From Stegostoma tigrinum (lineage: Eukaryota): a stretch of DNA of 64,000 bases. Every line of letters begins with the position of its first letter. The first letter of the stretch is position 1. Shown here in pieces: positions 8,884 to 59,150 of the stretch. The stretch covers positions 9,648,035 through 9,712,034 of the forward strand of contig NC_081369.1 of assembly GCF_030684315.1 (NCBI RefSeq). Direction: 5' to 3'. Made by a program: the position numbers and the translations under genes. Under the pieces are notes generated by a model. The model saw only the letters and a program-made list of their open reading frames with translations, searched no databases and was not told the DNA's origin.

Positions 8884-9179
8884 CATTACTGACAGTGTAG
8901 CTGATACTGACAGGCACCTTAAGACAGACGTGAGATACCTCGCATGTATAAACTACAATGCTATGCACGGGCTGTGCTTCTTCCAAAAAACTGGAAACTT
9001 CATAAAGCCCATCTACAGTCTTATTTTTCACAGTTTCTATTCTGGCCAGAATTTCGACACCATTCCTTAGCCGGGGATTCCCACATTGTTCAGGTAAAAG
9101 TCAATCATTCTACACTCGACTTTTGGAGAAGTCACTGACGACCTTTCAATAAGAATAATTTTCAACTGACTTGGGGGAA
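8884..9179 (-). pseudogene. Gene A C1 exon with a 1-nt deletion
   Basis: VPPSQLKII..VECRMIDFYLNNVGIP[frameshift at W]LRNGVEIL..KTVDGLYEVSSFLEEAQPV..YTCEVSHVCL. Shares GLYEVSS and CxVSHVxL with the gene B C1. Confidence 0.88.
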
Positions 9180-10257
9180 CTATAAAAGAAAAAGAAAAGT
9201 TATAGTTTTCATACGGAGGAGTGTAGTAGCATTTGTATGCCTGAGTGTCCCTTACATCATGACTGTGACAAGGGTAATCCATTATACTGCTCATCTTTCC
9301 TTTTGTTCACATTTTATAATCATTACGAAAATGCAGCAGATTCTTGCACTAGCTAAGATCAGCAGCAATGATTCCAATTGAATTTCTCTCCAAGTATATC
9401 AGACAGATGAGATCATAATGCGTGTGGAGTGGAACTATACTTTTATTTCCCTTTATGGCCCAATTCATATTAGAGATTTTATATATTTATTTAAAAACAA
9501 AGGCCAATTTCAAACACTTCATATAATATAGACCTTACGTTTTTTGCATGATTATTGAGTTGGCCGAGATACTTTCAATGCCTACGAAGACTTCAGAATT
9601 GATTATGAAAAATGCACTGATTATCGTTTGGCCATTATAATTGAGCACAGACATTTCTATGCCTGTGGCGAAGCTTTCACATTGTGGGAGTTTTACCAGC
9701 AAAATATTCCTACAGTCTAGGGAGCAGATACTGATCGAGGGCTGTAACATTTGTCACCTCATGAAGATGTTTTGTTGACAGTTGTGTGCCACTGGATAGA
9801 AGCTTACCAAACTCTGAGAAGCATGGGTTATAGCGATATGTGTGACAGCATCAGGTGGAATTGTTATCTCAGGGAGAGACCATCATGCTGCAACTGGCAC
9901 ATTTGCTCAAGCACCAAAGCAAGATACTCACCTTAGAGCAGCGTGTTCCCAATTCGTGGCTTGTTAACCAGTTTGTTAACAACTCAGCTCCCAAGATTTG
10001 CAATGTTTCTAAATTGCATTCATAATTTAGGTGCCTGGGAAACTCGACATTGTGACCACAGCAACTTCTTGCTGAGTATAACTAGTATTCTGTTTGCAAT
10101 TAACTCAAAGTTGGGCAATTAGCATGAACTTCATTGACATGCACCAAAAGCACCAGCTCAAGGACCCCACGTCTGCAGACAGTGGTGCCCAACCTCCACC
10201 AGTCTCCAGCAATCCTCAGTGACACATCTCTGATCTAATTACAGGATACTCTTGCAC

Positions 10258-13193: not shown

Positions 13194-13481
13194 CGCACAC
13201 AGTCAACAACGATCCACTTCCAGCTCCAATGATGGTCTTCTGATGCTTTATTTTACAATAGTACAATCCAAAGTCTGCAGCAGTGACATTGAGAATATGA
13301 AGTGAGCTCCTTTCTTTCTGTACATGAAATACCTGTCTTCTGCTGGGTTTCAGAAACGATTCTGCATCGATTCTCCACCAAAATACTTCAGGAGCATTTT
13401 CAAATATGAGAAATGTACAGAACATGGAAACATTAGCACCTCTGATGGTCTTCAAGTGTTTTGGAACTTTACTCGATGTCA
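13194..13481 (-). CDS. Gene A VJ-type Ig exon (open frame)
   Basis: Canonical B-strand Cys, WW, DxGxYYC and GxGxGSxLxV; phase 1-1 splice sites. Confidence 0.9.
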
Positions 13482-15749
13482 CTTAAGTTGGTGCCAGAAA
13501 AAAAAGTAAAGCAGCGATGAAAGTTGCATACTTCGGAGAAAGTAATGCATGACACGAAAAAAATGCAAAAAAGGCAATGGAGAAGTATGTACATCTAATT
13601 GGAGAGTACAGAACCCTGAATGGAATTAAAAATGAAATTCATATGAAATAAAGATGTTGAATTTAAGCTATTCTGATCAGCAGCAAATAAATTTTAATGC
13701 TACCTGGCCATACTATAATCAGAATAAACTTGAGTTGAACTACAGTTCTCACTGGCTCATTGTAACATTAAATAAAGTTAATTAGCAACTTGCTTAAATC
13801 GACTGTCATGCTCTAAATGGTTGGTTTGAGAAATGAGTTTCGTAGATTAGTATAGGAAGTGTGTCACCAAGGCATGAGAAATCACGTGATGAGCATTATA
13901 TAATCTATCCTGGTATCTTGAGCATTGTGGAAGTTGGTGGCTCCCTTCTGTTGCTCGCTGAGAAGCTTTCAGTCTGAAATGAATTTTTTTTACCAGTTCA
14001 TGTGGCACTTTATTGCAACAATCTTCCCTATTGACACAGAACATTGAATATTGTCTGAATGGTGAAAGTATCATCTCTGTTTGCAGGTATAGGCAGCTGT
14101 TAAAGGGATATTTGGCCCTGGGCACTCCGCTTTCTGTCTGACCCTGATATTGAACAGTGTTCCTGCACAATTTATTTCAGAAATCATAGGATATCAATTA
14201 CATTCAGAATTGTGCTCGTTTTAAGCACCCAATTCACTGTTATAGGCACTATGCAAAAAGTCCTGATGTAAAACAAGCAAATTTTACGGAACTGTTTGTT
14301 GATACCTGCAGACAAAACTGTAGTTGAAAGCTAACGAGTTTAACCTTTATTTAGTTGATTGCAACAGGGAAGCCGATTTCAACAGATCAAAAACATTCAT
14401 TTCGGCTCCATCATGCAGCATGTTTCATTTCTCGAACTTCCTTTGCTGCGTGTAAATTGATCCTTATCAGAATTCTGACATTATTCAGGAGTCTTGCTTC
14501 CAACCACGTCCATGTGAGCTTAGTAAAATTTTGGTAAGAGCAGGGCCAGTGTCAGTAATGCCAAATGTGATAGCAGTTTAGTTAAGTGCAGAGAATAAAA
14601 GTGCACAAATCTTGATTCATATCTGAAGTACGCAAGTGAAACCCAGTCTCCCGTATAAAGCAGTACGCAATACTATCCTTCTCAATTTTTCCCATCGCTT
14701 GAGACGTGGTGACCGACAGGTTGAAACTACCGTCAGTCAACTATCTCTAATAATAAAGCAGCCGTATGGTAAGGCTATGGCAACTTAACCTCTTACCAAA
14801 TATGGCAAGGTTAATTCATGAATGATTTAGGCAGCAGAAGAGTGATTGCAGGCTAGTTTAATGCATGTACAAATGAACAGATTGTAAATTGAGCACTTTC
14901 AGCAAACATATTTTCATCTTTAGTTTGCTGGTGGTTTTTGAGTTAATCGATTTGCCACCAAATCCTTGAAGTTTACTGGCTACAGAATGCATCACTTTTC
15001 GTCTTCACAGTACGTGCCACGTTCAACAATTTTTGGTTAGCACTGGGGCCACGTGTACACCAGAAAGAAGGTGATCCATTTATTTTATTGTTACTTTATT
15101 CTTGAGTAGCTACAACGATTGAAATAATCTGAGTGTTTTAAAATAGCATTTCAACAGCTGCAGTGTCAGGTTAACAGTGAGCAAGTATTTTCATGTCTTG
15201 TCATGTTCACAAAATAGTCATCAGTTTTTGCTAATCACACTTCATGCTTCTTTTTAAAAATGTTTTTGAACTGATTTCAAATTCTGATTTCCACTTCATC
15301 CAATGACAATCTTACTCAAACACTTCTCTGATCATTCTTCGTTCAGATAACAGCAGGTCAATGTTTTGACAATTTCACAGTCTCAGCAGTGAACCTGTGA
15401 GTAAATTATTCTTGTGAAAACGTATATTGGAGGATTCATCATATACGTCATTTTAAGAGTGTCTTAGATTTCATTTTTATGTCAATGTAGATCCATTCAC
15501 CATTGATACTGTGCTGAATGGTGCTTGAAGCAGACAAAACATGTGGAACATCATCATCACCACATCAAGCATGATTGACCAGTGGAATTTGCAGCTCTTG
15601 AATCCTGCAATGTGCAGATAGGAAAGATTTTTAAAAAAATATTCTGTTTTTTTGTGCACATTAAGTCCTGGGACAGGATTCAAACCAAAATGAAAATGCA
15701 GCCATTCACAAGACATCACAAATTCTCCCGGAGGAAGGCAGCAGAGTGG

Positions 15750-19225: not shown

Positions 19226-22200
19226 CAGTCTCCAGGTGAGCCAATGAATTGAAAAACATCTATATGACAAAGTCAGCCTATTCATACCGTCACTCATAAG
19301 CATAGGTTTCCACTTAGAGCTGATTACATTCCCCTGCAGGGAATTTAGTCCTCTTGCAGATGTTGGTGGTATTTCCACTTCACTGGCCCCATCATAACAT
19401 TAACCCATACTTTCATGTCTTCCACCTGAAGTGTTCACAACTTATTTAAAGAATCATTGGTGCAGATTATTTGAAGAGTGGCATTGCATTGAGATCATTA
19501 ACCCAATTCTTGACGATTACAATAAAAAAAACTCTACCTCTCTCATAGGACTCCCCACCAGGCTCCTTAACATTCGGTAGTAATTACTATCACACTACTC
19601 ACTGGCTTATGGGACATGAACCCAGGTTTTATGATTCAGAGGAAGGGACTCTAGCACAATGCAACAGGATATTGAATGTGTGCATACATATTGTAAAATG
19701 CTTCTGTAGAAGGGCAGACTTGAAACTGGAGCAATTTACTTAATTCAAGGGATAATGAAACTGCACCACATGGCCAAGGTGGGCCATATTTTCTATTTGA
19801 CAGTTCCCCATAGTGGAGGTTAGACGGGGGAAGATAAACCACGCCATATTTTCACAGTAGTCAGTTGATGTATTTTGCGAATAACTGTCCAGCATTACTG
19901 ACAGCTACTTCAGCAACTCCCATGAAAGTTTAAGTAAATTAGCAAAGTGTGAGATTTGATTGTCAGGAACGTGGGTATCAGGAACATTACCCAGTAGAAA
20001 AGCTGCTGGTTGGGTTGGGTGTGAGGATGTCACGAAGACATGCTGACAAGCAAGTAGGGTGCAACATGTACAGAGTGCGAGTTGGTTATGGTGCCACTTG
20101 TAAAGGAAAGATGTTAATAGTTAAGCAGAGAAAAATGTGATTGGGTGACAAGTCATAGTGTGTCGCATCGGTGCATGGTCAGGATGCAAGCAGGATTCCA
20201 ATGACCTAGGTATATCTGGTGCCAGGTAGGCAGACTTCAAGGTGCCTATGGTCAGATTGCCATATAGGTAAGGCATCTGGTAAATAGGATTTAAGTTGTT
20301 ACAGTGTCAAAGTGGAAGGTCTAAAAAGGACAGTTAATGGAGTGATAATTCGGTGGGAAAGCAATATTGTGTTTGGAATGGTGTGGTTTCAGGTCTCATG
20401 TGAGAGACAATTATTGGTTTCCTCAAGGACAATGGTCTCTGAGCGGATGAGAAACACTCTCAGAATACTGTGTCATAGGGTATCAGGTTCTGGGTGCAGA
20501 AGGATTGGTGAATCCTTGGATTGTAGGTGTTTGATCTTGATAGTAGGGGACTTGAGCTGCGTGTAAAGTCCTAAGTCAAGAACACAATGTTGGCTGGCAG
20601 GGCGCTGGTGTGCCCCAAGACAAAGTTAATTGGTACGGTGCAGAGACGAGGGCATTAGTGTCCCAGCCTCTGGAAATAGTGTGATTTTGCCATGGAAGGA
20701 TAGCAGTGTCATGCAGTGGCAGTGGGTGATTTGCGACCGGAAATAAGGGGTGTTTCAAGCACCAGAGCTTGAAGGGAGAGGTTGTGCTTGGCTCCATGCA
20801 AGCGAGTCAAGTCTGCTCCTATGATAACAGATCTTCATCAGACCTTGTGGTGTCGGGGGTGTTGGAACCAACATAATGAATGAAGTATTTTGGGTTCTGT
20901 TGAGGGTGGGTGCTTTCTGGTCTAGGATTGAGAGCTATTAGATGGCAGGTGAAAAGACTTTGTTCTCTCTGGTGAAGAGTGGAGAGTTTAGAGTTCAATG
21001 GTGGGTAGTATTCAAAGCCAGGAGGGTAGAAAGTTCACAGTTCCCTTCGGGATGGGAGAGGTCAGCTGCTGAGTAGAAAGGAGACGCGCTTGGACAAAGG
21101 CTGAGAATTCTATACTGCTGCATCCTGAATCCTTATACCTTAAATTAACCAGGGATGCGAAGTGGCTTTTCATTGCATTTTTTTCAGATTATATGTTAAT
21201 GTATTTTACAGCACTTTAAGTTGAAAATCATTGTTCCTTGCATTAAATGGTGTGCAGATACACAAGGCCTCATTGACTGTTCTACCTTCTTGTCCATGCC
21301 CAGTGACCCAAATTAAGGATGGTAATATAAGGGGTGTGACTGCCTGTTGAATCATAGCGCCAAGGTAACTCTCGCCCTCTGTGGTGTGTAGTAGGGTTCA
21401 AAGCTCAGACTCCAGCCCATCAACTCAAGCAACTAACACTTGTTACAGATCATGTCCTTCTGAACTGCTACAGAGTCCACTATCTCGAACTCCATTCAAT
21501 TGCAGCACATTTCTGACGCTGAATCTCTGTTTCGTTTTATTGTTATTTAATGTATTTATTATATTTTCGACTCGTATTTAGTTCTACAATTTCTTATATT
21601 AACATTTTAATCTAAATTCAACTTTGAACACGTATTTCAATTCGTTACTTATCAGCGAATATACTTACAATTTTCCTATGATGTGTTATTGTGAGAAAAT
21701 TCCTGCATTCTGGCTTAAATCCTCGAAATGTTTCTTATTTCTACTCCAATCAGTTGCTTCCTGTTTCCGCATGTTACCTCTTGGATCCCAAATCCAACTA
21801 CCGCTGGATTCAGTGATGGCCAGTTCTGCTCCCGCTGCTGTTCCAATTGAACTGGGTCTTGCCTTACCCTTCAGGCTTTTATCTGGAAGCACTTCTGGTG
21901 CCGGCCCACCCCAGACCTGGTTGTGCTCTGGCAGAGCTCCTCAACCACATAATGATTCGCCAGCTGTTCACCACCGATCACCATGCTTGTCGCACTGTCC
22001 TTTGTCGACATGAAGCAAAACTGACTCCAGAAGTATCAGGAAATTCAGCAGAAGAAAAAGAAAATCATTACTTCGTCTTACGCTGCAGTCTCCATTACAA
22101 ATGTAATTCTGCATATCAATTCTTGAGGCGGTTAGAACATTCCACTTAACAAAGCACAATTTGAAAACCCACTCTTGCCGGATGTGAAATGTCATTGTAA

Positions 22201-22291
22201 CGTCACTGATTAAAAAAAAGAAACGCCTACCTATCTTTTCAATCATTGCACATTTGCATTTGCAGCAGAGAATCAACAATTTGAACAAAAA

Positions 22292-22346
22292 ATGGCAACG
22301 AGTATCATGCTTCTTTGCGTAATTTTCCGGGGCATCATTCAGACAG
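22292..22346 (+). CDS. Gene B exon 1, signal peptide MATSIMLLCVIFRGIIQT
   Basis: ATG in the context aaaATGG, hydrophobic core, phase-1 donor ACAG|gtgtca, 172 nt upstream of the V exon. Confidence 0.75.
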
Positions 22347-25300
22347 GTGTCAGTTCTTTTTTGTTATCTTTTGTTCATTTTTCCGATTTCTTTTTATCTA
22401 TACAGCGTACGAAGCACTTGCTGCGTTCACCTAGCTAACTACAATTTATCAATCCAGATACGTTTTCACCTTCATGCCTTGTCTAATGCTGTTAAATGTT
22501 TGATTATATTTCTGATAGCTGCGGAAGACTCTTCATTCACTGTGTCTCAAGCACCTAAAGAAGCGAAGGTATTCATAGGACAGAATGTCACCCTTTACTG
22601 CATTTTTCCGCTGTCTCCAGACCAAACCTGGGTACGGGTATTATGGTGGAAACATGGCGAGAATGAATACTTGCGTACAAGCAGAGACAAGAGAAAGAAG
22701 TTTGGCATGGAAGGTAAGGCAAGCGGCTTCTTTCAGCTGCTGGAAGCAACAATCCAAGACGCTGGAATCTATCACTGCACCGTGATCCGCCAAGGAGAAG
22801 TTAGAGGAAACGGAACCGGATCACATTTAAGGGTGTATGGTTAGTTCGAAATATAGGAGAACAAGACTTGCTACATTATATTAATCAGGGATGTGAAGTG
22901 GTTATTCATTGCATTTTTTTCCAGATAATATATGTTAATGCATTTTACAGAACGTTAGTTGGAAAATCATTGTTCTTTGCATTAAACGGTATATAGACAG
23001 ACAAGACCTCAAGCAGTGACAGTGTGAGGATTTGGATGCGAGTTTTACAGTTGACTTTTGACTCACTCAATAATGGAAATGTTAGCACGCGCTTGGGTGT
23101 CACCTCACTGACGTTCAATTAATATAACACAGACAGGCTGTGTCGCTGAAACCTCCCGATGTTCAATTGAACAAAATGTATTACTCCAGTTGTCATGCTC
23201 TGACAGACAGCCATGCCGGCACAATTAAACCTTTTCATTTTCCACCAAGAACGTGTACATCACTGCACCTGATTAGCTATCCAACTTGTTCACCAAGGCC
23301 TACACCTCGAAATGATGTAAACTAAATGCTTGTTCGGAAGTAATTGCCTCTCATGCGGGGAGGAATTCTAAGCTGAAACTTTACAGATTGATAATGTGCA
23401 TTCATTTCTAATGTGTGATTCGTACAAGGCATGGCAATTAAAAAGGATAGGAATTTAGAGTGAAATCACTCTATAGTGAAAGAGTAAAGCAAATTAAATT
23501 GTAAATTAACTTTTTTTCTCAATAGTGTGCAGTAACTTGACTATGCGTTTGTTTTTATTCTGTGATTTGCAGCCGCCCCAACACCACTAACCATTGTCGC
23601 AGGGCTATATAAAGGGAATTCTTCGACGTCTCTGACTCTAAAGTGTGAAACGGCCGCATTTTATCCAGAAAATTTCACCCTTACTTGGTATAAGAATGGT
23701 ATTGAAACTGCATTTGGAATAAGTACCAGTGAAGTCAAAAACGCCGAGGGACTGTATGAAGTTTCCAGTTCATTGGTTGAGACGCAACCTGTCCTCATTG
23801 ACATGAATTATAGCTGTTCAGTATCTCATGTCTCCCTCCAGACGCCAGCTTTTGCCACCCATACAGTGTCTAAATCTAATCCAGGTATGACAGCAACAAC
23901 TTAAGAAGTTTACACGTGTAGTGTTGAATTCATAGCTACAACACACGCCGAGCTATCATGAAGACAGTCCAGGGAAGCATCGTGAGAAGTATCAAGTGCA
24001 CTAAATCCGTGTTTTTGGCTAGAATTCAGTCTGGGCGTACCAAAACTGATGTGTTTCTAGATACTGAAATAGGCTTAGTTCAACCAGCCCTTCCGTCTAA
24101 ATTCCTTTATGGCAGACGCAGCAATAATAAACAAAGTTTCTACTTCCCATTCTAATATTTCCTCACTCGACTGTGGCTGATTTTTTTATAATCTGGGTTT
24201 TATGCTTATGTTGTGTTACATTTTACCTGTGTCCACCTTTTCCTTCTTGTATGAGGATTAACATCGGTAGCGTCAGACATTTTTTTGCGAAATGATTTTT
24301 TGTAATGCGAGTTGCGATACTGCCCCAAGTTCTACTGCTTCCTGTGCAGAAGTCTGAAATTAATCGTCTGGTGAACTTCAATTACCAAGTTCTCAAAATG
24401 TTTAATGGGGATGTAATTCATGATTTCCATTTAAACTGTGCCTGCAATTCGCTACAGTATGCTCCAGTCAATGCATTGCGTTTTCAATGAGCCTCAGTGA
24501 GGAAATCGATCGGCTTTTTTGTACCCAAGTCTCTCATGGATAACAGACATCGCTGCAAAGACAAGCATTTATCGATTCATTAGTTCATTTATGAGGGTAG
24601 ATAAGAGACGCAATATTTGTGTTATTTCCTGCTTGCCTCCAATGTTGTTTGGAAATCTGGCCAGTAGTGTAAAGGGACCATAACAGTATTGGCTTAATTC
24701 TCATACGACTAAGGTTGCCAATATAGGACTCTTTTCTTTAATCGGTCCCCCTGCCTGAGGCAGGTCACCTTCAGTTTAAACAACCTCCAGAGTGATTTCT
24801 CCCGAGTGATGGAACAGCCTGATAAGACTATCGTGACTTTATTGTCCTTACAGTGTCGTTCTGGTCCTGGTAAATATAGTTAAAATACCAAAAGATGATT
24901 TGTAATCGATTGCTGCATTTCAGAACTTTTGTTTTCAAGGAAGAAATGCTGCTCAAAAATTCTCCAAATTTCTTTCTACGATAAGGAATTCTAAGAGTTT
25001 GCTCTTAGAAGCTGTTTGCTGAAGGAAACTTGATTTACCTCACATTTTAAATCCCCATAAAACTTGAAATCCTTAAACCATAGGCCTATTCCAGGTATGA
25101 AAAGAAATTTCACATTTTCGAGGAAGAATTTATTTCAAGTAGGTTGGCTACGAATAGTATTTCGAATTTATTCATTCTTAATGCAGTTAACTAAAATGCG
25201 GAGTGAAACTGCCAGTGTAAACAATTAATTGCCTAGGAGACAAATTTTGTTTCAGGTTCTCCACTTCTTGCTCATTTGTGGGATTTAGGTGTCACTGAAT

Positions 25301-27177
25301 GGGCCCACATTTATTATCCATCTCTAGTTTCCCTTTCGAAGGTGGTAATGACCTGCCTTCTTGATATACTGCAATCTATTTGCTTTGTGCACCCACTTAG
25401 CCATGAGGAGGGGCGTTTCTAATAATTTTGTTTTCTCCTAATAATCGTGCAGATAATGATCAGAAGCCACGTTATTTTTGGATTCCAATTTTTGCGGTAG
25501 CTGGCAGTGTATTCCTTGTTTTTCTGATTGTCTTTGGAGCGTGGTCTCTGCTGAAGAATAATAGAGGTAAAACCTATTTTAAGTCTTTGATGTTATTATC
25601 AATAATCAGAATGAAAGTCAGCTCTTGGGTAACAAAAATGGAAATGAAGTTTAAGAAGAATTGAAGTTGTTGAGAATGTTTTGTTTTTTACTTGGGGGTG
25701 TGGTTGGAAGGCTGGCAAAGACTGTCCTAAATGTGCTTGTACCATAAAGCCTTTCCAATTTCAATCAAAATGGAAATAATCAGCAAGATTTGTTTTAAAG
25801 AAACAGCTTTGTGATCTAATGAACGTAAGATATCTTGATAAAGCATTTTCAAAATCTCAATTCACAGCTACGATTAGTTTCAATGTGCGATTGTGATGAG
25901 GGTATGAGTGGCAGTGTGTATTTTAGAAACTGATGTAGAGGTAAACCATAAACCCAAAAGCGAAATTATCATGTCTAGTCCTCGATTTAAAATAAAATCC
26001 CCTCTTACACTACGGTGTGCTAGATATCTACAGTTTTTGAAAGGTAACCTTGAAATAAAAAAAAACTGGTTCATCATTATAAGCGGTAGTATATAAAAGT
26101 CCTCACATTGCAGATTTAAAAACCGTGTTCGACATTTTTCTGACTTTGAAATTGCAATCTCTGACATTAAAGCTGTGTAACTGTTTCTTTTTACATCACG
26201 TTTCATTCGTTTCTGGGTAAAGATGACTCTGTAGCAGGAGCGAACCACGATAAGGAGATGGTATGTCAATTCATTGATGTTGAAATACCCTATCAAGAAA
26301 TAATATTGTGGAATATTAATTTCACAATTAAGGCGGTTTAGCTTAGTTTAGTAAAAATGTTGACAAGCCTCACTAAGATAATCAAGTCAGACATGGAAGT
26401 TATTTAAAGTTGAAATTGCTGGAGAAACGTCACAGGTCTGCCTGCATCTGTGCAGAAAGAACATAGTTAACGTTTCGAGTCCAGAGACTTTCTTCAGAGA
26501 ACTTTAAACTTATTTTATGGGCATTTATTTGCTACTTAGTGTGTTGCTGTGGAACTCTGATACGTTATAAGAAATTAAAGTCACTAATTGCACTGAAAAT
26601 ATTCTTATGTGACAATGTTTTTCTATCCTTTATAATTGAAAGGAAATTTCAATTCATGACACTTAGTTTGATGTAAACATTCCCATAGCACTCATGTTGC
26701 ATGAGCGTTGATAGCGTATTTACTTGGTACAGCGCCCCGACTATATCACATATGTTTTCTGGTCAAGGAACTATGATTTGCACAAGGAAGCTGCTAAGTA
26801 CAATGGAGTTGCCGACCAAAAAAAGGCATTTGTTTTTGTCACCAACGCACAAACATGCCACGGTGCAAGCTTGAAGAGGTGAAAATTGTGTCCGCTTAGG
26901 TAGGTTTGAGTAACAGAGCCGAGAAACAAAGTGTAGCATCACCATTCGTGGTAAAGGTCAAGATAAATTCATACAGATTTTCCAGTATATTGCCTCGAAA
27001 GTCATTTGATCATCTGTTGAATGCTTTGAAACAGCATTCCGAAAAATGTGAAAAACGCCTTTTTAACAATATGTTCGAACAATGGTCTTTCAGCATCAAC
27101 AAAGTGTAACTGGTGAAGATGTGACATACGCGATTGTGTCGACAACTTCCTGGGGGAGAACTGGACAATGCATCTAA
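22292..27177 (+). CDS. Gene B: intact 6-exon IgSF inhibitory-type receptor (leader-VJ-C1-TM-ITIM), 307 aa; NKp30-like V plus SIRP/antigen-receptor-like C1
   Basis: join(22292..22346,22519..22839,23573..23884,25453..25566,26223..26260,27094..27177) = 924 nt with no internal stop. All introns are GT..AG with matching phases 1,1,1,1,0, as is typical of IgSF genes. Confidence 0.88.
22519..22839 (+). CDS. Gene B exon 2, VJ-type Ig domain
   Basis: tag| acceptor. Translation includes VSQAP, NVTLYC, LWWK, DAGIYHC and GNGTGSHLRVY. Phase-1 donor G|gttagt. Confidence 0.95.
23573..23884 (+). CDS. Gene B exon 3, C1-set Ig domain (missing from the ORF track)
   Basis: tttgcag| acceptor. Translation includes LTLKCETAAFYPENFTLTWYKNG, NAEGLYEVSSSL and YSCSVSHVSL (CxxxxFYP, W and YxCxVxH motifs). 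Donor CAG|gtatga; 312 nt. Confidence 0.95.
25453..25566 (+). CDS. Gene B exon 4, transmembrane segment
   Basis: DNDQKPRYFWIPIFAVAGSVFLVFLIVFGAWSLLKNNR: uncharged hydrophobic helix, cag| and G|gtaaaa, phase 1-1. Confidence 0.88.
26223..26260 (+). CDS. Gene B exon 5, short cytoplasmic exon DDSVAGANHDKEM
   Basis: Pyrimidine tract plus aag|, donor ATG|gtatgt. Phase 1 to 0 links the TM exon to the ITIM exon in frame. Confidence 0.7.
27094..27177 (+). CDS. Gene B exon 6, cytoplasmic tail with ITIM (HQQSVTGEDVTYAIVSTTSWGRTGQCI*)
   Basis: tctttcag| phase-0 acceptor. VTYAIV (27121-27138) matches [VILS]xYxx[LV] and is preceded by acidic ED. TAA stop. Confidence 0.8.
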   Translation, partial: HQQSVTGEDVTYAIVSTTSWGRTGQCI

Positions 27178-30020
27178 AGAAACAACTCAGTATGCTCAGC
27201 TAAGGACAAAAACGCAAAGTGTTCTATCAGTTTCAAAGCATGTGCACTGTGAATGCACAACGATTGAAGAATGCAGCCCACAGTGTTGATGTGTAATTGT
27301 TTCAATAACGTTTTTTAAAAAGAGAAACATACATTTCCTGACATATTTTAACGTTAAGTAATATTTTACCCAGCCATGTTTCTTTCTTTGACTGCAATAG
27401 ACAGCAAATTTGTTGCACAAGATTATCAGTATGAATGAAGTCAATCCGAAAATATTATGTACTAGTTGGAACAATTTAACGATTGGTGTTTTTTTTGGTT
27501 GAGTGATAATCTCAGTGAATTTATATATTGGCTATTCCTTTGAAGCAACTGTTCCCTTCACCTCCCGAATTTAAACCGATTAACATTTTCCCCAGAGTGT
27601 GACCTTTCCCTTTTCCCTATCAAGGATGCATGAATTTATACTTTGTAATGCAATGCATTTTGTTATTTACAATATCGAGTGTGAGCTTTTTTTTAATTCA
27701 ATGCAAGTGGCGACTGTTTCTTCACCGTCATCTATGTTCTTTGATGTTACTTCTAATATTCCCGTTTGGGAAACAGAATACACTCTGCCTTGTTATTGAA
27801 ATCCTGATAATTGGACTTGTTTAGCTCTGCTAACTACTATAACCTTTATCTCAAAGGAGCAACAAAAATGCGAATAAACGGCTATGCATCAACTGTCAAT
27901 ATGTCGCAGTTTCTTTTGAAACTTTCAAACACGTGAGCACTTCCATCTCAAAGAACAAGGGCTGCTGATACATGGGAATAACACCATCTGCAAGTTCCTG
28001 TCCAAGTCACTCACCATCCTGCCTTGGAAATCTATCATATTTCAAATGTTTTACGTTATAGCGTACTTACAGCAATCTTTAACTTCTAACTTTGTTCTTT
28101 CTTTCTACATTGTTCTTAAAATTTCATACCTAGGCACTTGTATTGAAGATTGCACCCATCTGGTGACATTATGCACTTTTCACTGTACTGTACGTTTGCT
28201 TTTGAGTATACGTGGCAATAAAATCAAAAAATCAACTCACTGGTCCTTCAGTGCTATTGGGAAACGTTTTGGAATTTCCTCCAAAATAGCTTTGTGTGTG
28301 TATTTACAGCACACGGACTACAGCCTTTCAAGAAGGCAGCTCACCACTTCTCAATGGAAACTTAGGGATGAGCTATAAATGCTGGTCCATCCAGTGATTC
28401 CCAAATCGCACGAGAGAATTTTAAATGGAAGGTTTACTTAAAATTTCACGTTTTCACTTCCAAAGACGCAGGTGTTTCAAAATGGAAACAAAATAAATTC
28501 GACAATTTTGGTACGTGATTAATTTAAATAACGACACTTTATTCACGGAAGATAAAACACAATTATGGTAGTTGTCTAGAATTTTACATAGGACTGGGCA
28601 TCAAGAGCTAAGGGCTCATCCCCAACTGCAGTGGAAATGCGTTATTGGACTTTGTAAACCACCGCAGTCGTAAGGCCGCATTAAAAGAGCTGTTAGCGTG
28701 GTACTTCAAGGATTTTGACCCAGCAACATAGAAAGCCTTTGATACGTCATGAACGACCAGATCGTGTTTTGCAGCCTTCTCGTTTTAGCTACAGGTATGC
28801 ACCTGCTAAATATCAGCAAGAGCAATTTGCTTAAACAAATTTACAGTTGAACCGTTTCAATCTTATACAAGTGCTTGCATCTCTGTTCTAAATTTAAATA
28901 TATTGCAAAAGTGTGGGCGCACAGAGCGCCAAATAGCTGCTGTTATTTTGTACGGTGTATCTCAGTATAATTAGAATAGCCGTTAATGATCATCTTACTA
29001 TTACACTTTTGTCAGTTTAACTTTCCAACTGCATTATGCTGCAATTGGGGATAGCAAAATAAACTTTTTTGTCTTACCGCAAACACTCTTCTGTTAATTA
29101 TGCACGGACAAGTACAATTAAGTGTGTAAATTTCCAACTTAAATGCATTTTCTTCAAGAGTTAAAATATTGCAAGATGAATCTAATTAGCCTACAACTTA
29201 CAACGTCTGGATATTTCCAAAACGTGGAGACAGCTAGGGCAGTAAAACAGTTTTGGGCTACTTGACTGTGAAACTAAACATTTTAAGACGAATATTGCTA
29301 AATATGTTTGTTCCTGTCGTCATGTTGCATACTGTGGAAATGTAGTTTCTTGGTGGCGAAGGAGCAGATGTATAAGACCATCTTGCTATCTCATTTCGAA
29401 CGCATCAGAAAATGTTATTTTCTTTTTTGCGTTCATGGGATGTGGATGTAGTTAGTAAGGCTCGCATTTCCCCCCATTTTTATTTGCCCATGAACTAAGT
29501 CAATTACTGGGCTATTTCATGGACCTGGTATCATCAGCCTGTCTGCCCTTTGAATGTAAACAAGCAAGGAAAATTGATGATGTTCACAGTTCAATTAACA
29601 CTGATATTATGCAGCCCACACTGGTGTTTGTGGTGCAGTGGTAGCTTTTCCGCTTCTGATCCAGGCAGCCCGGGTTCAAAGTCCGACCTACTCTGCAGGT
29701 GTGTTAAGATATCTATGTTGCCTGTGCCATTGGGCATCTATGTGTACATCTAGGGTTATCCTCCGGCATGTCACCCACCTTTGCGCAGTCTACCGACTGA
29801 TGCAGGCATCGCATACCTTCTGCCGCATTGCCCGATGCGAAGATCCCTCTCCACTGCAGAGTCCAGAGACACAACTTTCTGTGGAAAACATAGTCTGGTT
29901 CTTCCTGAACCATCCACTACTAAGGGCTGACGGATTTAATAGAGCAGCTAGTAGCATTCAAAGCCCAAACGCATTCTCATGCGTGTGGCAAAAATTCTGT
30001 ATTTAGCCAATGCTTACCAT

Positions 30021-34810: not shown

Positions 34811-36389
34811 GTCATTATGCATGACCTTACGTTTTTCTTACATTAAATGCAAGCTGCCATGTTTTTGTTCATCTCAGAACTTTGATGAAGACTGTTTGTG
34901 GGTCGCATAACTATTTAGTGTGAGGGAGTCTTGTTTGTTGTTGGAATCGACTGTACAAATTGCGTTACCACCTAAAAACGAAAGTTCATCACCACATATA
35001 GAATTGGGAAAGAACTATTTATCTGTCAATCCTTTCCGTGCCCACTGTGCTGGAGCAGAACTGTGGCTCATTGAGGCGTGGGGCGGGGGTGGGCGGTGTG
35101 GGTATGGGGAGGGGCGGTGCTCTGGTGTCATCCAGAGCAATATTCAGTCCGAGGAACTTGGCGTCAAAATTAACAAGCAACTTCTGCAAAATCATCACAA
35201 CATCAAAATGATCACCCGAGTCACGTGCACAACGCCTTACTGCAAATCAGATTTGAGAGAGAAATTAATGGCATTAGAACTGGCGTGGGTAATGTGAGTT
35301 CTGTTTCTTGGTATGCACTACCAGTCATGGGGACATAAAGGCTCCACTTCCTGTCATCGTTGCAATACATGTGAGACTCTACTGTTTACGCTGTTCAAAT
35401 TTCTCCTGCCACAGTCGGCAAGTGTTGATCCACTTGAATTTGTGAACCTGTTTATTTTTCCAATTCACGTCTCTTCACACTGATAAACCTCAGACTCTTT
35501 GAAAATTACATTCAAGAGTTGAAAGGAGGCCGTTCGCTTTTCAGTGACAAATCATAACCTGTTGTCTGACCGTGGCAGCATAATTCCGTTTATCCCACCT
35601 TCCGACAAAGATTTGGCCAATTACCAATTAAGTTAATCCTTATGAGGCGCATGCTGTGAAATGAAACTTCCGTAGTCATTTCAACAATTAGTACTGGATG
35701 TTTGAAGATAACATGGCAGCCTGCTTACGGTCTGAACTTGTACATAAACCCATATACTATGTCTGAGGCTACTTGCCTGTGGCTGTACTGCCAATGTCGA
35801 GGCGTAACGAGCAAAATAAAGACGCAGGTGTCATACTGGGTAGACCCTCATCATACTATATAGTATTACCTCATTATAACTTCAGATTCAGTCCCTGTTT
35901 AAAACTTATTGCCTGATACTCTGTTCTTGATACAATGTTGCTTGCATCAATTGATCTTTCTAATGCAACTTGATGTATCTTCCAGAAAACTGTGGCAGAC
36001 AGAGGCTAGCAATGCTTTAATGCTTCAAGGTCAATGTCAAATTCACCTTAATTTAAATTCAGAAACGGTACCTTTAGCGTTGGGATGAAAAAATAGGAGG
36101 AAAATATGATAAATCAGGAGGCAGGTAATATTAATGCTAGATATTTAAAATAAAACTTGATCAATGTAATGACGAAGTCTGATGAAGTTCTGAAGAAGTG
36201 TTACTGGCCCAAAAATGTTAACTCAGCTTTCTCCACAAAAACGCTGCCTGGCCTGTTGAGTTTTTCCAGTTTTATTTTATATTGTTTCTGATTTTCAACG
36301 TCTGCAATTTTTTGTTTCTTTTAGCATGTACGTATTATAGTTTCTTGCGTAGGCAGCAACACGATTGAAGTAGAAAATGTTGAAGCATC

Positions 36390-37464
36390 ATGAGACTGGA
36401 AGTGATGTTGCTGTTTGAACTTGGGGTCATTGTCACAGTTAGGTATTGCATTTCTGATTGTCCGAATCAGCACTACATTATATTTATCATATTTTCTGTA
36501 CATGATTTGATATCGATGCCACTGAAACACCACAACAAGGATAACCTCGGGTGCTTTTAAGAGTTGTGTACAGAGCTTTACAGTAAATATTAAAATGGTG
36601 TATAACTTCAAAGATGGCGCAATAGAACATCGGCAACAAAGTCTCCTGAACATTATTGTTTCCTCGTGACTTACCTCATACAGTTAGATTGAATTCAGTT
36701 CCATTCTCACTAACTTTTCCCTAATGGATTTTTACACAATGATAGAGCCCTGAGTCACGACGCTTTGCATTTGGCAGATCCAAGAAACTACTACCTTTGT
36801 TTTTGAGACAAATATTTTTGATGTTATCTGTTCCTGTTTGCATATATTTAATCTGTTTCGTTTCCAACAAGGTAACTCAATTGCTAAAATTATCATTAGA
36901 AAGGGGAATGATACAGCAGAGGATGATGTCGGTACCCCTTTAGATAGTTGCCTCTTTGGGATGTTGAGATATCCTGGTGGGAGTAGCTGTCGTATGTATT
37001 ATAGAATAAAGCTGCATATTAATTAATTGTATTCCACGCAAAACCAGACACTTAAGGGCACAACTGTACATGGAAATATAAAGGAGAGATAAGATGTCAA
37101 AGGAGCAAGCTATATTCAATTCAAGTGATATAGCGATGAGGTAAGATCTCTAGTTCTTAACGAGATGTCTGAGAGCAAGAGTAAGAAGATACCTGTGTAA
37201 ATTTGTTGCAGCAGCAACAAGACCATGAACAGCAAGATTACAGTGACCGATATTCCGAACCAAAGTTTCAACTGAAGTCTGACTGCGCTCATTTTGGTTT
37301 GCTGCCGACAGAGCGTCAAAAGATTGTTTATCCTGAAACTCGCAGTTATGACATTTGGCATCTTATGTTTTGCGTTCCACGACAAAGAAACGGTTTTATT
37401 GTATTTATTCTGCTGTTCAGCTGATCTTGAAATCAAGTGTGACATCATCGACAAAAATAGCCAG
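36390..37464 (+). pseudogene. Gene C: decayed paralog (leader-like exon, V remnant, possible stalk/TM and cytoplasmic remnants)
   Basis: MRLEVMLLFELGVIVTV|gt at 36390-36442. V remnant 36872-37140 reads VTQ, CRYPF*LPLWDVEISWW, LHIN and DT*GHNCTWKYKGEIR (gene B: DAGIYHCTVIRQGEVR) across stops and frameshifts, and ends at AG|gtaag. Confidence 0.55.
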
Positions 37465-41595: not shown

Positions 41596-42256
41596 AAATA
41601 CTAACATAACAGTCTCAACAAGGGACGAGCAGAGATTAATGGATTTAGGCCACTCTGGCACTCACAAACCCAGAGAAAAAGGGGAAAAACGAACAAAAAT
41701 GTAAGAAGAGAGCATGCCCAGCTGTAGAAACAAAAGCAGAGGACTGACAGGCACACTACGTAAAAACGCAAAACATTATTAGCCATTAGTATTCATCTAA
41801 CATATAGCGGGAGTGATGTGTGTACTGTGCAAATTCATTCTTCTGGATTATGACAGAAAGCAGGCTGTAACTATTACATACAGATCAATTATTTGATTAA
41901 TTGCCTTTTAGTTACCTCTGATAAATTGAGTTGCTAATCAACCTTATCTTAAATCTGTTTGATTTAATTAACAAATACATTGCGATGGTTCACTAAAACC
42001 TTGGTCTCCCAAATTATTAATAATTATGAAGTTAAAAAAATCCGATCACTTAGAGAAAGACACTTTGCAATCAGTTATAGCAATTAATAGGGCAAAATAT
42101 GTTTGCTGATTTATGCCTGCGTTATTCGTACTGTTTTCTTCCAACCTAGGCAACCTTGAGAAGTGAAGCAGGAGTAATTGAATTCCACCGACCTTTTGAA
42201 ATATGCAGAAGTTGACTTCTAATTCTGTTACGCCATCCCAACCTTCAACCACTCAG

Positions 42257-42329: not shown

Positions 42330-42788
42330 GTAAGTGCTTGTTTTATTGTTTCTTTTTTTCTCTGATTCAAATTTTCAAATGGTCACTCTGTTAAAAAAAA
42401 AATGACCAGACCTTCATGTTGCCTGCCACTTCTACACAGACTGCACTCCTGAACCAACTTGCCTGCCTCTGGCCAGCTGAAACAATGACGCCCCATCTTC
42501 GGTCTCGACACACTGCAGCCTTCAGCACTCAGCTTCGATTTCAAGCTCTTCCGATTTGAAAGACCTCCCCCACACCTAAAGGTTCAGCTTTGCATGGGTT
42601 TCTCCCTGGACAGCCAACCCATTTTCAAGTACTGACCCTTCTTGTTAGCTTCCCACCTAATATTCACCTGTTTTGCCACTTACACTCAGCTATCTATTTG
42701 TGTGCCTATCCCTTTCCAGTGCTTGTCGGTTCCGATGATGGGTCTCTTTACTCGAAACGCTCATTCTGTTTTTCTCTTAGCAGATGCT

Positions 42789-44017: not shown

Positions 44018-44891
44018 TGCCAGAAATTGTTGTTGGTTTATATCAAAGTCAAAATATGATTGGCATAAAGATACATATCAAACCAATCATCCACTTAATA
44101 GACTTGATATGTCATAACATTAACAATGAATATTTTCTCAATGGTGCACCTGTCATACAGACAGCGAGCTAAGAATATTATTCTGAAGGTGACCATTTGA
44201 AGCTCCAGAACTTGTAGGCAGAGAAATAATGAGTGACTACCTACCGCTGCAAAAGACTAGACAGGGGAGTGCGCAGGTCCTCTGAGTGCACTTCAAACAA
44301 GCCGATCTCAAAACATATCCATCGCCAATACTGGTGATGATACAGTTGCCAAATCTGTAACGATGGTACTGTTGGAACCAAACTATATAGGGCGGGGAAA
44401 ACTATCAAGAAAACACCAGTTAATAGGAGTGCATAGACATTACAAGAGCCAAAAATGTTTCCGAAATATATGGTACCCAACCTGAACAAGTGTGACTCCT
44501 TAATAACAACTTTCATCAGTGACAACTACTACTATGGTGAACGATGCAAATGAGCAACTGTGGAATGTTATGAAGGGAGAGATAGAGCCGTTGCCCATAT
44601 TACGACCAAGGAGAAACGTGAAAACACCTGACCATAATCTCTGGACAGCTCTCAGTATCAAGTGCTAATGAATTAAATATAGCAAGTGCAGCTCCGTATG
44701 TACTGAAGGTTATAGACTTCAGTCAAATTCTCAGAAAGATGAATTTATAGACATGATAATTCACGCACTTAAACAAAAACACATAGTTGTATAGAAACAG
44801 AGCAAATCAGGCTGCCAGAAATTGTTGTCAGTTTATATCGCAGTCAAAACATGATTTGCATAAAGATACATATCAAACCAATCATCCGCTT
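43972..44891 (+). repeat. About 125-bp direct repeat (43972-44096 and 44767-44891)
   Basis: acttaaacaaaaacacatagtt.tatagaaacagagcaaatcaggctgccagaaattgttgt...catatcaaaccaatcatcc is present in both copies. Confidence 0.9.
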
Positions 44892-51680: not shown

Positions 51681-51699
51681 CGACCCTGTGACTTCTGCA

Positions 51700-55200: not shown

Positions 55201-57867
55201 CAAAAGAATGGCTGGGTTCTTCTCTGTTGCGATTGATTCTTTAAAAGACTTTGTATCGCATATATACTTCTATTTGATATTTCAGACTCAGTAATGATCT
55301 AGCGAAAACAGTTACCCAAAGCAGTAGCCAACTATGTACGTCATTTCCTTTGGTTTTTCAAGTAACAGTCAAACTTGAACTGTCACAGAACCTATTCGTT
55401 TAGAGAAAGTTAAAATCAGGACCTAATTATAATTAATTTTTTGACCTGGTTGGTTATAGTTCTCCTCGTACTAGTTGCATAATTCCCAAGTCATATAACT
55501 TAATCAAAATACTCCCAAATAAGACTCAATTTAATATTTTGAACCCTCATATTGCTGACATTGCTGACACCAGACTCACTGCGATAAAAGAAAATAGTCC
55601 ACACCAAAAGTCCGTAGATGTGCTAATTGACAAGATTCTAAAACATTTAAGTAACGACCATGATGTGCTGCATTTTCTACAACTGAGATGTAATTAAGTT
55701 AGCACGTGCTCCCATACCTTAATTTATAATTTCCCGAATAATTTCTCCTTCTTGGTTTCAGAACCCTCCATCCAACTTCACTGTAATTGAGGTTAAAGGC
55801 CTGTTGTAGATTATCGGGGCGACACGTTTATACTTGCATGTGCAAAGATTAATAAAAACATTTCTGAATGCAATTGAAAGACAACCCAGAGCTCAGCTGT
55901 GAATGTGTCATTGGGAAATGAAGCTGACCCATTTTGGATTCAAATGCTTAGTCCTCTTAAACAGAACGATCGCCCTGAATCAAAATCGGAACAAGGGAAA
56001 AAACTTGCGAAATTCAAATGCAAAGTTATGCTCTTTCGATTTCTGAAAGAAAATGTACATTGCAATAAGGTCAATCTGGAACTAGAAGGAAAGAATCTAT
56101 TCAGCGTGCAAGATAATACGGAGATACGCCATGACAGTAAGAATGATTGTACGAGCCTGTAAATATGTTTCAATGCAGATTTGTCTTGAAAACAATTGTA
56201 TTGTAAGTATACATGTAATCGACTAATAATTACCAAATAATTAAAAACTTATATGGTAGCTAACATTCTCTAACTCTCAAATATCTTACATCTTAATGAT
56301 TGGATTTTGCGAACATAGACACGCAAGGGCTCAATTAATGCCTTCATTTTACAAGCGCTAAACTGCCACTGCGAATCGCAGGCTCACTCAAAGTCCGTCA
56401 GATGCAGTTCCATTGCAAATGATATGGAAACAAATCACGACGCAGGAATAACTGTTACATGCATTCAAGACTGTAGCAGTCTTCAGTTACTACTTCTCTG
56501 TAAACGGCCTTTGGATTTTCTGGACATTTTCTGTGGTTCCTTCGGTTTTTTTTTCCCTTTTCGTCTCTCTCTCTGCAGTTTGTTCAGATTTCTGATATCC
56601 AGGGAATTCTAGAGTCTCGAATGTGACATATTCAGGCTGACCTCTGCTTTATTTGTAAAACCGATGTTTGAAAATATTGTTGATTTATCGATCTAACCAT
56701 TTTTGATTCCTGCTTACTGTGGTCGTCACAATTATACGCATACAGCTTTAGAGACAACGCACTGTGAAAGACGCAGAACCTTGAAATTCTCTGCTATAAT
56801 ATTATTATTGGTTCTTCACAGGGCATCAACGTTTCCCTTACGAACTTCTCAGCCTCACCTGAGCGTACAGGTGACGCCTCTTCTTCACCTCTTGGAGTTT
56901 CGTTGACATTTTTCAAAACTACTGCTGTATAAATCACGTTCTTGCTCGCAAGAGACAAGCCGACTATTTATTAGCTCGTTAGTGAATGGATTTCAACATA
57001 TACAGACTGGCGATTAGGCAGTCAACATAAGTGGGCCAGGGGCTTCAAAAGAATGCAGAAGCAACCGTTAATATATATAAAGGTCTTTTGATGATGAAGC
57101 CAATAATACGGTGTCTATTGTAACCGAAATTTCATTCATACAGTTTCACCACAATTGTATCATAGGTGTTTTTAAACAAGAGGCGCGTTCAGTGTTTTAA
57201 TCATTTACCAAACGCTTCAAGATTAGCCACAGGACGGCGGAACATCTGCTTATTGCATAGCTGCGCATTGTTAAAGCGGCTACATTTTCCTCACCAAGCC
57301 TCTATCTCACTGAAGTGTCAAATTGTTTTGAACATCATAACAACTATAAGCAAATATTTGTAGTGAAAGAGCTTGTAATAAAACATTTCCATTTTGACAT
57401 GGTGTACGTAAATAGGAATCCGTTTCTTGGGAAAAAAGCAACGAGCTTACCAGCTCGTCACAAGAATTCACAATTGTTACACTTTTCTATTTAACTGGCG
57501 AAAAGGTCCATCTTAATTCATTTCACTGATTACGCTTTGTGTTTTATACATTATCTCCGAAGAAAGGTGGAAGTTGGTATGATTATACACATGAAATGTA
57601 AGCTGACAACTACAGCCCATATGAAAAAAAGCCGATTCAACGGACTTCATTGAAACAAATACATTTGGAATTCTTGAGACATCTGTCACTTAGTAGACCA
57701 TACCAGATATATGGCCATTCACTACAGAGCAGTAATAGGCGATCTACAAGATTCAAAACTCAAAGGCAGCACAGTACCATATGAAAGATACCAGGGAGCA
57801 ATCAAAACATGGGAAGTTCTAGTTGCTCTGTTCGGACATTGAATATTCTGACCATTTTCAGTCACTG

Positions 57868-59150
57868 ATGATGAAGTGCAAACTTTGGTCCAAACAACAT
57901 CAGACTGGTCTTCCATTGTTAGGTAATGGGCTATATATAAATAAAAATTTTCGCATACGAAATAGAGGTCTATGCCATGTTTAGTGGATTTAAGAAAAAT
58001 AGTAAGCTTTTGAGAGAAAAAAATGCAGATAAAATTATTGTATATTTTATTCTAGAGACACTGGCAGCACTGACAAAGGTGCATACTGTAACTGACATTT
58101 CAGATCTTTTTTGCCCTTATTTAAGCACAGCTGCACCGTTCATGTCATCATTTTGAAAGTCCGTTAATGACAGTTACTTGTGGCTGGAGTTACCCATCAT
58201 TCAGAACATGTTAAAAGGCAGATAATCTGTTGCTTGGCATTTTGTGACAACCCCTCAAATTAATAATCTCTCACTTTTTTCTAATTTTAATTGGATTTAA
58301 AGTCCTCACCATCTGTTATGAATCATAGGTCTGGAACTGTTGATTACTCGTCTAGTAGCATGAATACTACAAAACTGTAAACACCTTGTTCCATATTTAT
58401 AACTAAGTAATTGACATGTTAGCAGCAATGCGGGTATAAAGATGTCGAGAAACTCGCCCTCAGACAAACAGCAAAGCCTTGAATGAATGTTCAACTGAAC
58501 CGGGTGACTTGCAGCTTCCTCAGTTGTTCGAACAAACATCTGGATTTTGTACTTCCGATCACATTTCACAACTCCACATGAGCAAATGGCCATCCCATTG
58601 TAATCCGTTAGGGACCTTACAAATTCATAACTCCATTAGAAATATGAATGCTCGAATCATTGGAAGAACATCACAGAAGAATGACATGTTGGGCACAGGG
58701 CCTCAAACTGAAAGAATATGTCAAACGTAGCTTCTTGCATCGAGAATGTGGAAATTTATGGTGGTAGCATGCAATAACCGGATTTTTCACGTTATGTTTG
58801 TTATGATCCTTCTACTAAGATTTCTAAATTTAGCCCCAAGCTCCAGCAAAAGATTATTCTTTGCATGGCATCCAATCGCCATTCTTATATAATACCCGTA
58901 AGACACTCTTACCACCCCTCTGAAGATCTTTATAACTATCAGAGGATTGAGATCAAGCCTACTATTATTGTTTGAACAGACTTTGACCCCAATAAGGATC
59001 ATCTATAATAGAATTGTCAGTCCACACATCACATATCCAGACATCCAGGTATACTGATATTTACCATCTGCTTTGCAACGCTAAAACGATTAGTGCTGAA
59101 TTTGTTATTTATGTCTGTCATTGCTTAAAAAGAAACCCCGAGATAATTTG
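57868..59150 (+). pseudogene. Gene D: decayed L-V-C1 paralog
   Basis: 55-nt phase-1 ATG exon 57868-57922, the same size as the gene B leader. V remnant about 58442-58720 (LRQTAK..VTCSF, GTLQIHN..NARI, GTG..KLKEY). C1-like remnant from 58834 (APS..KIIL, PNKDHL..RIVS, Y-ICFAT). Confidence 0.45.

What the first reader, a model, noticed from the sequence alone, without database searches (positions are those of the whole stretch)
8884..59150. Birth-and-death cluster: up to four VJ(-C1) paralogs in 50 kb at different stages of decay
Seen in sequence: one intact gene (B), one with few lesions in the exons found (A, opposite strand) and two heavily decayed candidates (C, D). They share subsets of the same hallmarks (WW in strand C, LHI/LQI, DxGxYxC-like, GxG J-like end, leader exons of about 50-55 nt). 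A and B are clearly divergent in V yet share GLYEVSS and CxVSHVxL in C1. Inference: a rapidly turning-over, NK-receptor-like complex comparable in behaviour to KIR/LILR or NITR clusters, probably extending beyond the window.
Basis: partly seen in the sequence, partly recalled or inferred. Interest (0 to 1): 0.75.

Follow-up and report, generated by a model that had tools for sequence, protein, structure and literature searches.

The report
Decaying shark paired immune-receptor cluster
This shark DNA holds one mostly intact gene and broken remnants of at least four relatives, all from a large cartilaginous-fish family of antibody-like surface proteins that likely work as paired 'on' and 'off' immune receptors.

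Summary
The window has four V exons (A, B, two decayed ones at 35.4-37.0 kb) and two C1 exons. There is no V at about 59 kb; a decayed transmembrane exon of the family lies there on the minus strand. A further tail remnant lies at 41.7 kb. A is a pseudogene with an arginine-bearing (activating-type) transmembrane exon. B has intact leader, V, C1 and transmembrane exons but a damaged ITIM tail. Relatives were named in 20 shark, ray and chimaera species, mostly on one chromosome per species. They fall into ITIM and arginine types, including within-species pairs 92-94% identical in C1 and one likely transmembrane-exon swap. The window's V exons are only 26-38% identical and sit in separate old lineages, so the window shows mainly death of old copies; recent births show in other species. 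Ligand, cell type and signalling are untested. It works like SIRP/NITR but lacks their defining second-domain layouts. Ten literature searches found no description of the family; two key papers could not be read.

The parts
13704..13760 (-). Gene A leader exon, 57 nt, frameshifted after the ATG
   Evidence: weak match to the horn shark P0156 leader (E 0.11)
13194..13481 (-). Gene A VJ exon; stop and lost acceptor at its 5' end, 9-nt in-frame deletion
   Evidence: 56/94 identical to P0156
8884..9179 (-). Gene A C1 exon, 296 nt, one frameshift near 9095
   Evidence: 60/99 identical to P0156
7313..7428 (-).
   Evidence: E 3e-11 against P0085; HMM 32.6 bits, null 4.3
21136..21272 (+). Second copy (117/137 identical) of the start of B's V-C1 intron; likely trace of a deleted tandem duplicate; also present in organism B
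   Evidence: joint 23011 to 22200
22292..22346 (+). Gene B leader exon, 55 nt, intact
22519..22839 (+). Gene B single VJ exon, intact, no RSS-like signal behind it
23573..23884 (+). Gene B C1 exon, intact
   Evidence: C1-set 37.7 bits
25453..25566 (+). Gene B uncharged transmembrane exon, intact
26217..26260 (+). Gene B tail exon 1; the expected acceptor reads GG, an in-frame AG lies 6 nt downstream
26830..26899 (+). Gene B tail exon 2 remnant: frameshift, Tyr lost, stop before the donor; organism B has 50 more bases at its 5' end
   Evidence: (11/22 to P0169; weak alone), (joint 26823-26849)
27094..27253 (+). Gene B tail exon 3: ITIM VTYAIV, then a +1 frameshift that puts the distal TQYAQL motif out of frame
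35420..35596 (-). Remnant C2: 3' half of a VJ exon with two stops
36675..36986 (-). Remnant C1: whole VJ exon with stops and compensating frameshifts; no C1 exon found behind it
37193..37253 (-). Leader-like exon of C1, hydrophobic, no start codon, GT donor
   Evidence: (weak)
41613..41759 (+). Remnant E: last ITIM tail exon of a B-like gene, three stops, cut at its 5' side by a repeat
   Evidence: score 70, null maximum 56; 24/48 to P0175
55962..56081 (-). Remnant D: 3' segment matching the end of the P0042 model
   Evidence: E 4e-8
56490..56945 (-). Remnant D: tail exons 2 and 3 with a decayed ITIM (VIYTAV); borderline alone, supported by order and a GT donor
57450..57495 (-). Remnant D: tail exon 1 with a stop
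   Evidence: 8/13 to P0042; donor seen
58963..59067 (-). Remnant D: uncharged transmembrane exon with an in-frame stop; same lineage as C1 but 5' of it, so likely a separate copy whose V and C1 lie beyond the window or are lost

Best explanation
The window is a mostly dead segment of a cartilaginous-fish cluster of non-rearranging VJ-C1-transmembrane genes that likely encode paired immune receptors. Shown: exon layout, lesions, two transmembrane classes, and family breadth. Inferred mechanism: the V domain binds a cell-surface or microbial ligand. ITIM forms (B's lineage, D, E) would recruit SHP-1/2 and restrain the cell. Arginine forms (A) would pair with an ITAM adaptor of the FcR-gamma/CD3-zeta type and activate it. 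Activating copies likely arise again and again by duplication and by joining an inhibitory receptor's ectodomain to the conserved arginine TM exon, and are often lost. Here old lineages have died. B likely survives as a surface receptor with a cut-down tail (one ITIM or none), a weak inhibitor or decoy in the manner of SIRP-gamma.
For: Layout and lesions. Family: 54 of the 100 fetched proteins under 520 aa carry a B-like C1; named members come from 20 chondrichthyan species and share one contig length within most species. Two TM classes. The strict Arg...Asp/Glu-His class is 9 genes in 6 species including the chimaera, after I dropped 5 false pattern hits and 4 isoform rows from 18 rows. Pairs: Heptranchias P0195 (Arg) and P0175 (ITIM) are 92/100 identical in C1; catshark P0224 (Arg) and P0223 (other TM class) 94/100. 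Swap: P0195's C1 is 55% identical to P0225 and P0233 but its TM is 85-91% identical to theirs. On an 81-row V+C1 tree the loosely defined Arg and ITIM labels need 14 changes, as many as shuffled labels (mean 14.0); starred branches force at least 10. B: four lesions in about 320 nt of tail and none in 802 nt of leader-to-TM (chance 0.007, or 0.023 for three; post hoc). The adaptor rule for TM arginine is from passages of PMC6514059; the ITIM definition from 10.1101/2021.06.11.448072.
Against: No expression, ligand or signalling data. Many relatives are automatic gene models, some plainly faulty (read-through introns, one V-V fusion). The loose Arg label includes Cys-to-Arg variants of the inhibitory TM, which inflates the count of switches. 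A's TM lacks the NxxR motif that PMC4536121 ties to FcR-gamma binding. V is not generally more diverged than C1 among close paralogues (V lower in 11 of 33 pairs, isoform pairs included), although a few pairs keep C1 at 81-91% with V at 41-51%. The predicted fold is a generic V-C pair, with B7-H6 on top. B may simply be a young pseudogene. B's tail exon 2 and D's tail exons score weakly alone.
Confidence: 0.72

Rival explanations
1. Rapid, recent turnover produced the copies in this window.
For: Only one of at least five genes keeps an intact ectodomain. A B-like paralogue at 83-86% DNA identity and an 85% intron duplicate exist. Other species show 83-94% identical paralogue sets.
Against: Window V exons are 26-38% identical and lie in four places in the tree, three with strong support. 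The B-like duplicates are also in organism B, whose orthologue is about 93% identical, so they predate that split.
Confidence: 0.15
2. These are the chondrichthyan orthologues of SIRP (SIRP-alpha/beta/gamma) that lost or never gained the second C1 domain, and they bind CD47.
For: Many RefSeq names are SHPS-1-like or SIRP-beta-like. SIRP-alpha and SIRP-gamma rank 4th and 8th among solved sequences for the family profile. SIRP clusters score 0.95 in the Atlas. Same paired logic.
Against: One C1, not two. The charged residue is Arg at the TM start. Antibody chains and UrIg2 score as well or better, and the names are automatic and inconsistent (tapasin-like, B7-H6-like, MHC II beta-like). Synteny and CD47 binding untested.
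Confidence: 0.3
3. B is a young pseudogene too, so the whole segment is dead.
For: All three tail exons are damaged, and same-sample contigs carry the same letters (0 differences over 22200-27400).
Against: No lesion in 802 nt from leader to TM. All 7 gap bases of the organism B contig over 22200-22921 fall outside the leader and V exons.
Confidence: 0.3
4. They are B7-family ligands (B7-H6-like) or tapasin-like chaperones rather than signalling receptors.
For: Best fold match is B7-H6 (Z 16.8, rmsd 4.6, 193 aligned). PD-L1 dominates weak hits to B's V. Some RefSeq names agree.
Against: The top Z scores are close (16.8 to 14.7) across unrelated two-domain Ig proteins. GxG end in 55 of 71 V domains, repeated ITIM tails and Arg TMs fit receptors.
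Confidence: 0.07
5. They are germline-joined immunoglobulin light-chain or TCR genes.
For: VJ-C1 layout; Foldseek's listed matches are antibody light chains.
Against: Only 18-23% identity to those chains; F/W-GxG in 3 of 71 V domains; no RSS pattern in the window; TM plus ITIM tails.
Confidence: 0.02

Closest known systems
SIRP family (SIRP-alpha, -beta, -gamma)
   Same: V plus C1 ectodomain; ITIM, charged-TM and tail-less forms (PMC12975943, passages); among the top sequence matches
   Different: One C1 rather than two; Arg at the TM start, which points to FcR-gamma/CD3-zeta rather than DAP12; more genes per species; orthology and CD47 binding untested
NITR (teleost and holostean novel immune-type receptors)
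   Same: Single-exon VJ; clustered; inhibitory, activating and ambiguous forms; birth and death (10.1101/2021.06.11.448072, passages)
   Different: Second domain is C1-set, not an I domain with a J-like end; that paper cites a lack of evidence for NITRs in cartilaginous fish
NKp30 (NCR3)
   Same: Non-rearranging VJ; TM arginine pairing with CD3-zeta/FcR-gamma (PMC6514059)
   Different: NKp30 has one V domain and no C1; no ITIM sisters are described there; MHC linkage untested here
UrIg / UrIg2 and other non-rearranging VJ-C1 genes (PRARP, VJC1)
   Same: Unsplit VJ exon plus C1 in sharks (PMC12227049, PMC10751288); UrIg2 ranks 2nd by summed score
   Different: UrIg2 has V-C1-C2-C3 and forms antibody-like dimers; this family has one C1, a TM and signalling tails. 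PRARP architecture is recalled, not checked
KIR/LILR, hagfish APAR, skate MDIR
   Same: Paired activating and inhibitory logic; activating forms rebuilt from inhibitory ectodomains (recalled)
   Different: Different domain types (recalled: C2 in KIR/LILR, single V in APAR); no sequence test run

Membership tests
Chondrichthyan V-C1 'SHPS-1-like' family (automatic RefSeq names) | V, C1 and TM similarity with shared exon layout | tested here: met
   B 67-69% in V, 70% over V+C1 to horn shark P0171
Paired immune receptors | Near-identical ectodomains with ITIM versus charged-TM forms in one species | tested here: met
   P0195/P0175 92% in C1; P0224/P0223 94% in C1, 93% in V; from gene models
Paired immune receptors | SHP recruitment and ITAM-adaptor coupling | not testable with these tools
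   needs cell assays
SIRP | One V plus two C1 domains | tested here: not met
   one C1 exon in A and in B; one C1 in nearly all relatives read (P0034 has a duplicated C1)
SIRP | CD47 binding; conserved synteny | not testable with these tools
   no genome held
NITR | Single-exon VJ | tested here: met
   (GxG end, canonical Phe absent)
NITR | Membrane-proximal I domain with J-like end | tested here: not met
   C1-set 37.7 bits, above cut-off; no I-set match listed for B's second domain
NKp30 | Single V ectodomain with TM arginine | tested here: not met
   A has the arginine but also a C1 exon
LRC-type FcR-gamma-coupled receptors | NxxR motif at the TM start | tested here: not met
   Asn and Arg are five residues apart in A and P0085
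Rearranging Ig/TCR | Split V and J with RSS | tested here: not met
   no RSS pattern in the window
UrIg/UrIg2 | Several C domains, antibody-like dimer | tested here: not met
   one C1, then TM
B7 family / B7-H6 | V-C fold | tested here: inconclusive
   top fold match but close to unrelated proteins

The most novel reading that the evidence does not exclude
Sharks, rays and chimaeras share an undescribed complex, older than the shark-chimaera split, of non-rearranging VJ-C1 paired receptors. It would be their counterpart of SIRP/NITR/KIR, built on the same two domains as an antibody light chain, with activating members regenerated by transmembrane-exon swapping. It would be a new living relative of the pre-RAG antigen receptor.
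Probability: 0.45. Interest if true: 0.75.

Novelty: new variant of a known kind. Interest (0 to 1): 0.55.

Why it matters
How shark leukocytes balance activation and inhibition is poorly known, and a preprint I read cites a lack of evidence for NITRs in cartilaginous fish. A clustered family with ITIM and arginine forms in all three chondrichthyan lineages gives named candidates to test. Unsplit VJ-C1 genes are also sought as relatives of the gene invaded by RAG (PMC12227049). The window itself is mostly pseudogenes; the value lies in the family it exposes.

Tried and rejected
No whole genome was held, so synteny and copy number beyond the window are open. A V or C1 exon at 58-59.5 kb: not found by HMM, frameshift-aware profile or per-homologue scans. 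One 17-residue hit there, which first looked like chance (E 0.007), was the intron before D's TM exon. Alternative activating and inhibitory TM exons within one gene: candidates at 24.2, 31.4 and 59.6 kb did not appear among the TM-HMM hits above null; rejected. A C1 or TM exon for C1/C2, and an ITIM tail for A: none above null. Sequencing runs: no RNA holder listed. The bisulfite run X12 gave about 1x depth and was uninformative; 413 substitution rows and 27 indel rows were not shown, so I cannot say whether organism B shares B's last tail frameshift or the GG acceptor. dN/dS was not computable. Fold searches did not separate families; SIRP was not among the 50 VIA rows, which excludes nothing. 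Literature searches showed no paper describing this family. Ohta 2019 and Flajnik 2012 were not held and may mention it. The one supplement file held for PMC3964593 had no SIRP, ITIM, NKp30, B7H6 or MDIR; the paper's immune note may not be in that file. Earlier scan findings: none. Scripts had bugs and were rerun.
Full report
Setting. The window is shark genomic DNA; no whole genome was held. About 19% of it is repeated within the window. Reverse-transcriptase frames lie at 689-2698. None of 13 other long frames without an RT or GIY-YIG match had a Pfam family (18 tested). Similarity to a bamboo shark model extends into introns, so a carpet-shark-like lineage is my inference.

Gene B. Leader (55 nt), V (321), C1 (312) and TM (114) exons have GT-AG sites and one open frame. 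Pfam calls the domains V-set and C1-set. The V exon ends in a GxG G strand, with no RSS pattern behind it or anywhere in the window. The closest proteins were from two catsharks and a smooth-hound, 67-69% identical in V (3 hits among 31 candidates). Comparison with their relatives located three tail exons, all damaged. Exon 1's expected acceptor reads GG, with an in-frame AG 6 nt further on. Exon 2 has a frameshift, has lost its Tyr and ends in a stop. Exon 3 keeps one ITIM and then shifts frame before the distal tyrosine motif. Splicing exon 1 to exon 3 would give 307 residues with a single ITIM. Contigs of run X1 match the window with no difference over 22200-27400, so these are not slips of the window's assembly; X1 may be its source, so this is not independent. 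Organism B has an orthologue about 93% identical, with no gap in leader or V and 50 more bases at tail exon 2. Four lesions in the tail and none in 802 nt upstream has a chance of 0.007 under even decay, a post hoc figure.

The TM starts with Arg and is followed by Asp-His and a short tail. The leader is 57 nt with the ATG out of frame, the V exon begins with a stop and a lost acceptor, and C1 has a frameshift. It is a pseudogene of an activating-type receptor. The 31 hits to its horn shark relative included several horn shark and catshark paralogues and no carpet shark protein.

Other remnants. Profiles from 71 V and 56 C1 domains found four V loci and two C1 loci. A frameshift-aware scan agreed, with the next best scores at null level. 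C1 (36675-36986) is a whole V with a leader-like exon. C2 (35420-35596) is half a V from another lineage. They may be two genes or one V-V gene; catshark model P0001 is V-V-C1 but may be a fusion. At 58-59.5 kb there is no V. On the minus strand there is a TM exon with a stop, then tail exons at 57.5, 56.9 and 56.6 kb in the family's order. The tail pieces are borderline alone (mean 33.2 and 31.9 against a null maximum of 32.5). D matches the same bamboo shark protein as C1 but lies 5' of it, so it is likely a second copy. A last tail exon of a B-like gene lies at 41613-41759 (score 70, null maximum 56). A 137-nt copy of B's intron sits at 21136-21272. Total: B plus at least four dead genes.

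The family. A search of 1.84 billion representatives gave 179 hits at E 0.001 or less, 150 listed. A profile search gave 53 hits at E 1e-30 or less among 8000 scored candidates. All above 230 bits were chondrichthyan; weaker ones included multi-V turtle and lizard proteins. Named members come from 20 species of shark, ray and chimaera. After collapsing isoforms at 98.5% C1 identity I count 16 in elephant shark, 12 in horn shark, 8 in sharpnose sevengill and 7 in a devil ray. Sampling is incomplete, and some isoforms remain. Members of one species mostly share a contig length, so one chromosome is inferred. TMs fall into an uncharged class with ITIM tails and an Arg class with short tails. The strict Arg class holds 9 genes in 6 species, after dropping 5 false pattern hits and 4 isoform rows from 18. 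Within-species pairs share 92-94% of C1 across classes, and sevengill P0195 combines a C1 like an ITIM receptor's with a TM 85-91% identical to those of distant Arg receptors. On the V+C1 tree the labels are no more clustered than shuffled ones; the Arg label there was loose.

Tempo. The window's V exons are 26-38% identical and lie in four places on a 75-row tree; C2's place is weak. A, B and C1 each sit in strongly supported sets with shark and ray proteins. The duplications that made them are therefore old. Younger births exist: a B-like V outside the window at 83-86% DNA identity in both organisms, and paralogue sets at 83-94% in horn shark, sevengill, catshark and elephant shark. V was less conserved than C1 in only 11 of 33 close pairs, but a few pairs kept C1 at 81-91% with V at 41-51%, which suggests V-exon exchange.

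Mechanism. Shown: architecture, lesions, two TM classes, pairs. Inferred from established rules: ITIMs recruit SHP phosphatases (PMC12975943, passages), and a TM arginine pairs with CD3-zeta or FcR-gamma (PMC6514059, passages). A lacks the NxxR motif (PMC4536121, passages). Ligand and cell type are unknown. I put 0.72 on the paired-receptor reading.

Comparison. The AlphaFold model of the smooth-hound orthologue (P0003, mean pLDDT 76) is a V-C pair matched about equally by B7-H6, nectin-like proteins and butyrophilins and by antibody light chains. By sequence profile, an IgA construct, UrIg2 and SIRP-alpha lead. The family lacks SIRP's second C1, NITR's I domain and UrIg's extra C domains. I read abstracts or passages of PMC12227049, PMC10751288 (passages and section 13), PMC11599192, PMC3964593 (70, plus one supplement file), PMC6795676, 10.1101/2021.06.11.448072 (supplements not seen) and PMC7916673. 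The passages seen do not describe this family. Ten searches listed no such paper. Most subscription papers are not held, and two relevant ones were unavailable. APAR, MDIR, PRARP and KIR details are recalled.

Verdict. Observation partly confirmed; interpretation partly supported. It is a new variant of a known kind: a paired Ig-superfamily receptor cluster with a VJ-C1 layout. Interest 0.55.

Noticed in passing
window 689-2698 (-) and 49363-51336 (-): Long reverse-transcriptase frames of a LINE (RVT_1; CR1-like by recall) and a second decayed copy, 68% identical.
   Followed up: partly
window 60866-63038, 5925-6658, 33043-33835: Repeats with weak GIY-YIG matches below cut-off, Penelope-like by recall; copies up to 91-93% identical.
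   Followed up: partly
P0195, P0225, P0233, P0175 (Heptranchias): Activating TM exon shared at 85-91% between receptors whose C1 domains are 55% identical; likely exon swap.
   Followed up: partly
P0085 vs P0224; P0172 vs P0219-P0222: Same-species paralogues with C1 at 81-91% but V at 41-51%; possible V-exon exchange.
   Followed up: no
P0011, P0042 (Chiloscyllium): The bamboo shark models closest to remnants C1 and D look faulty themselves (no TM, partial V, intron read in frame), so this lineage may be decaying in carpet sharks generally.
   Followed up: no
P0074, P0194, P0196-P0205: Turtle and lizard multi-V proteins are the best non-chondrichthyan matches to the family profile.
   Followed up: no
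window 42786-42978, 43828-44096, 44767-44891: A 193-nt inverted repeat (90%) and a 125-nt direct repeat (94%) between remnants E and D.
   Followed up: no
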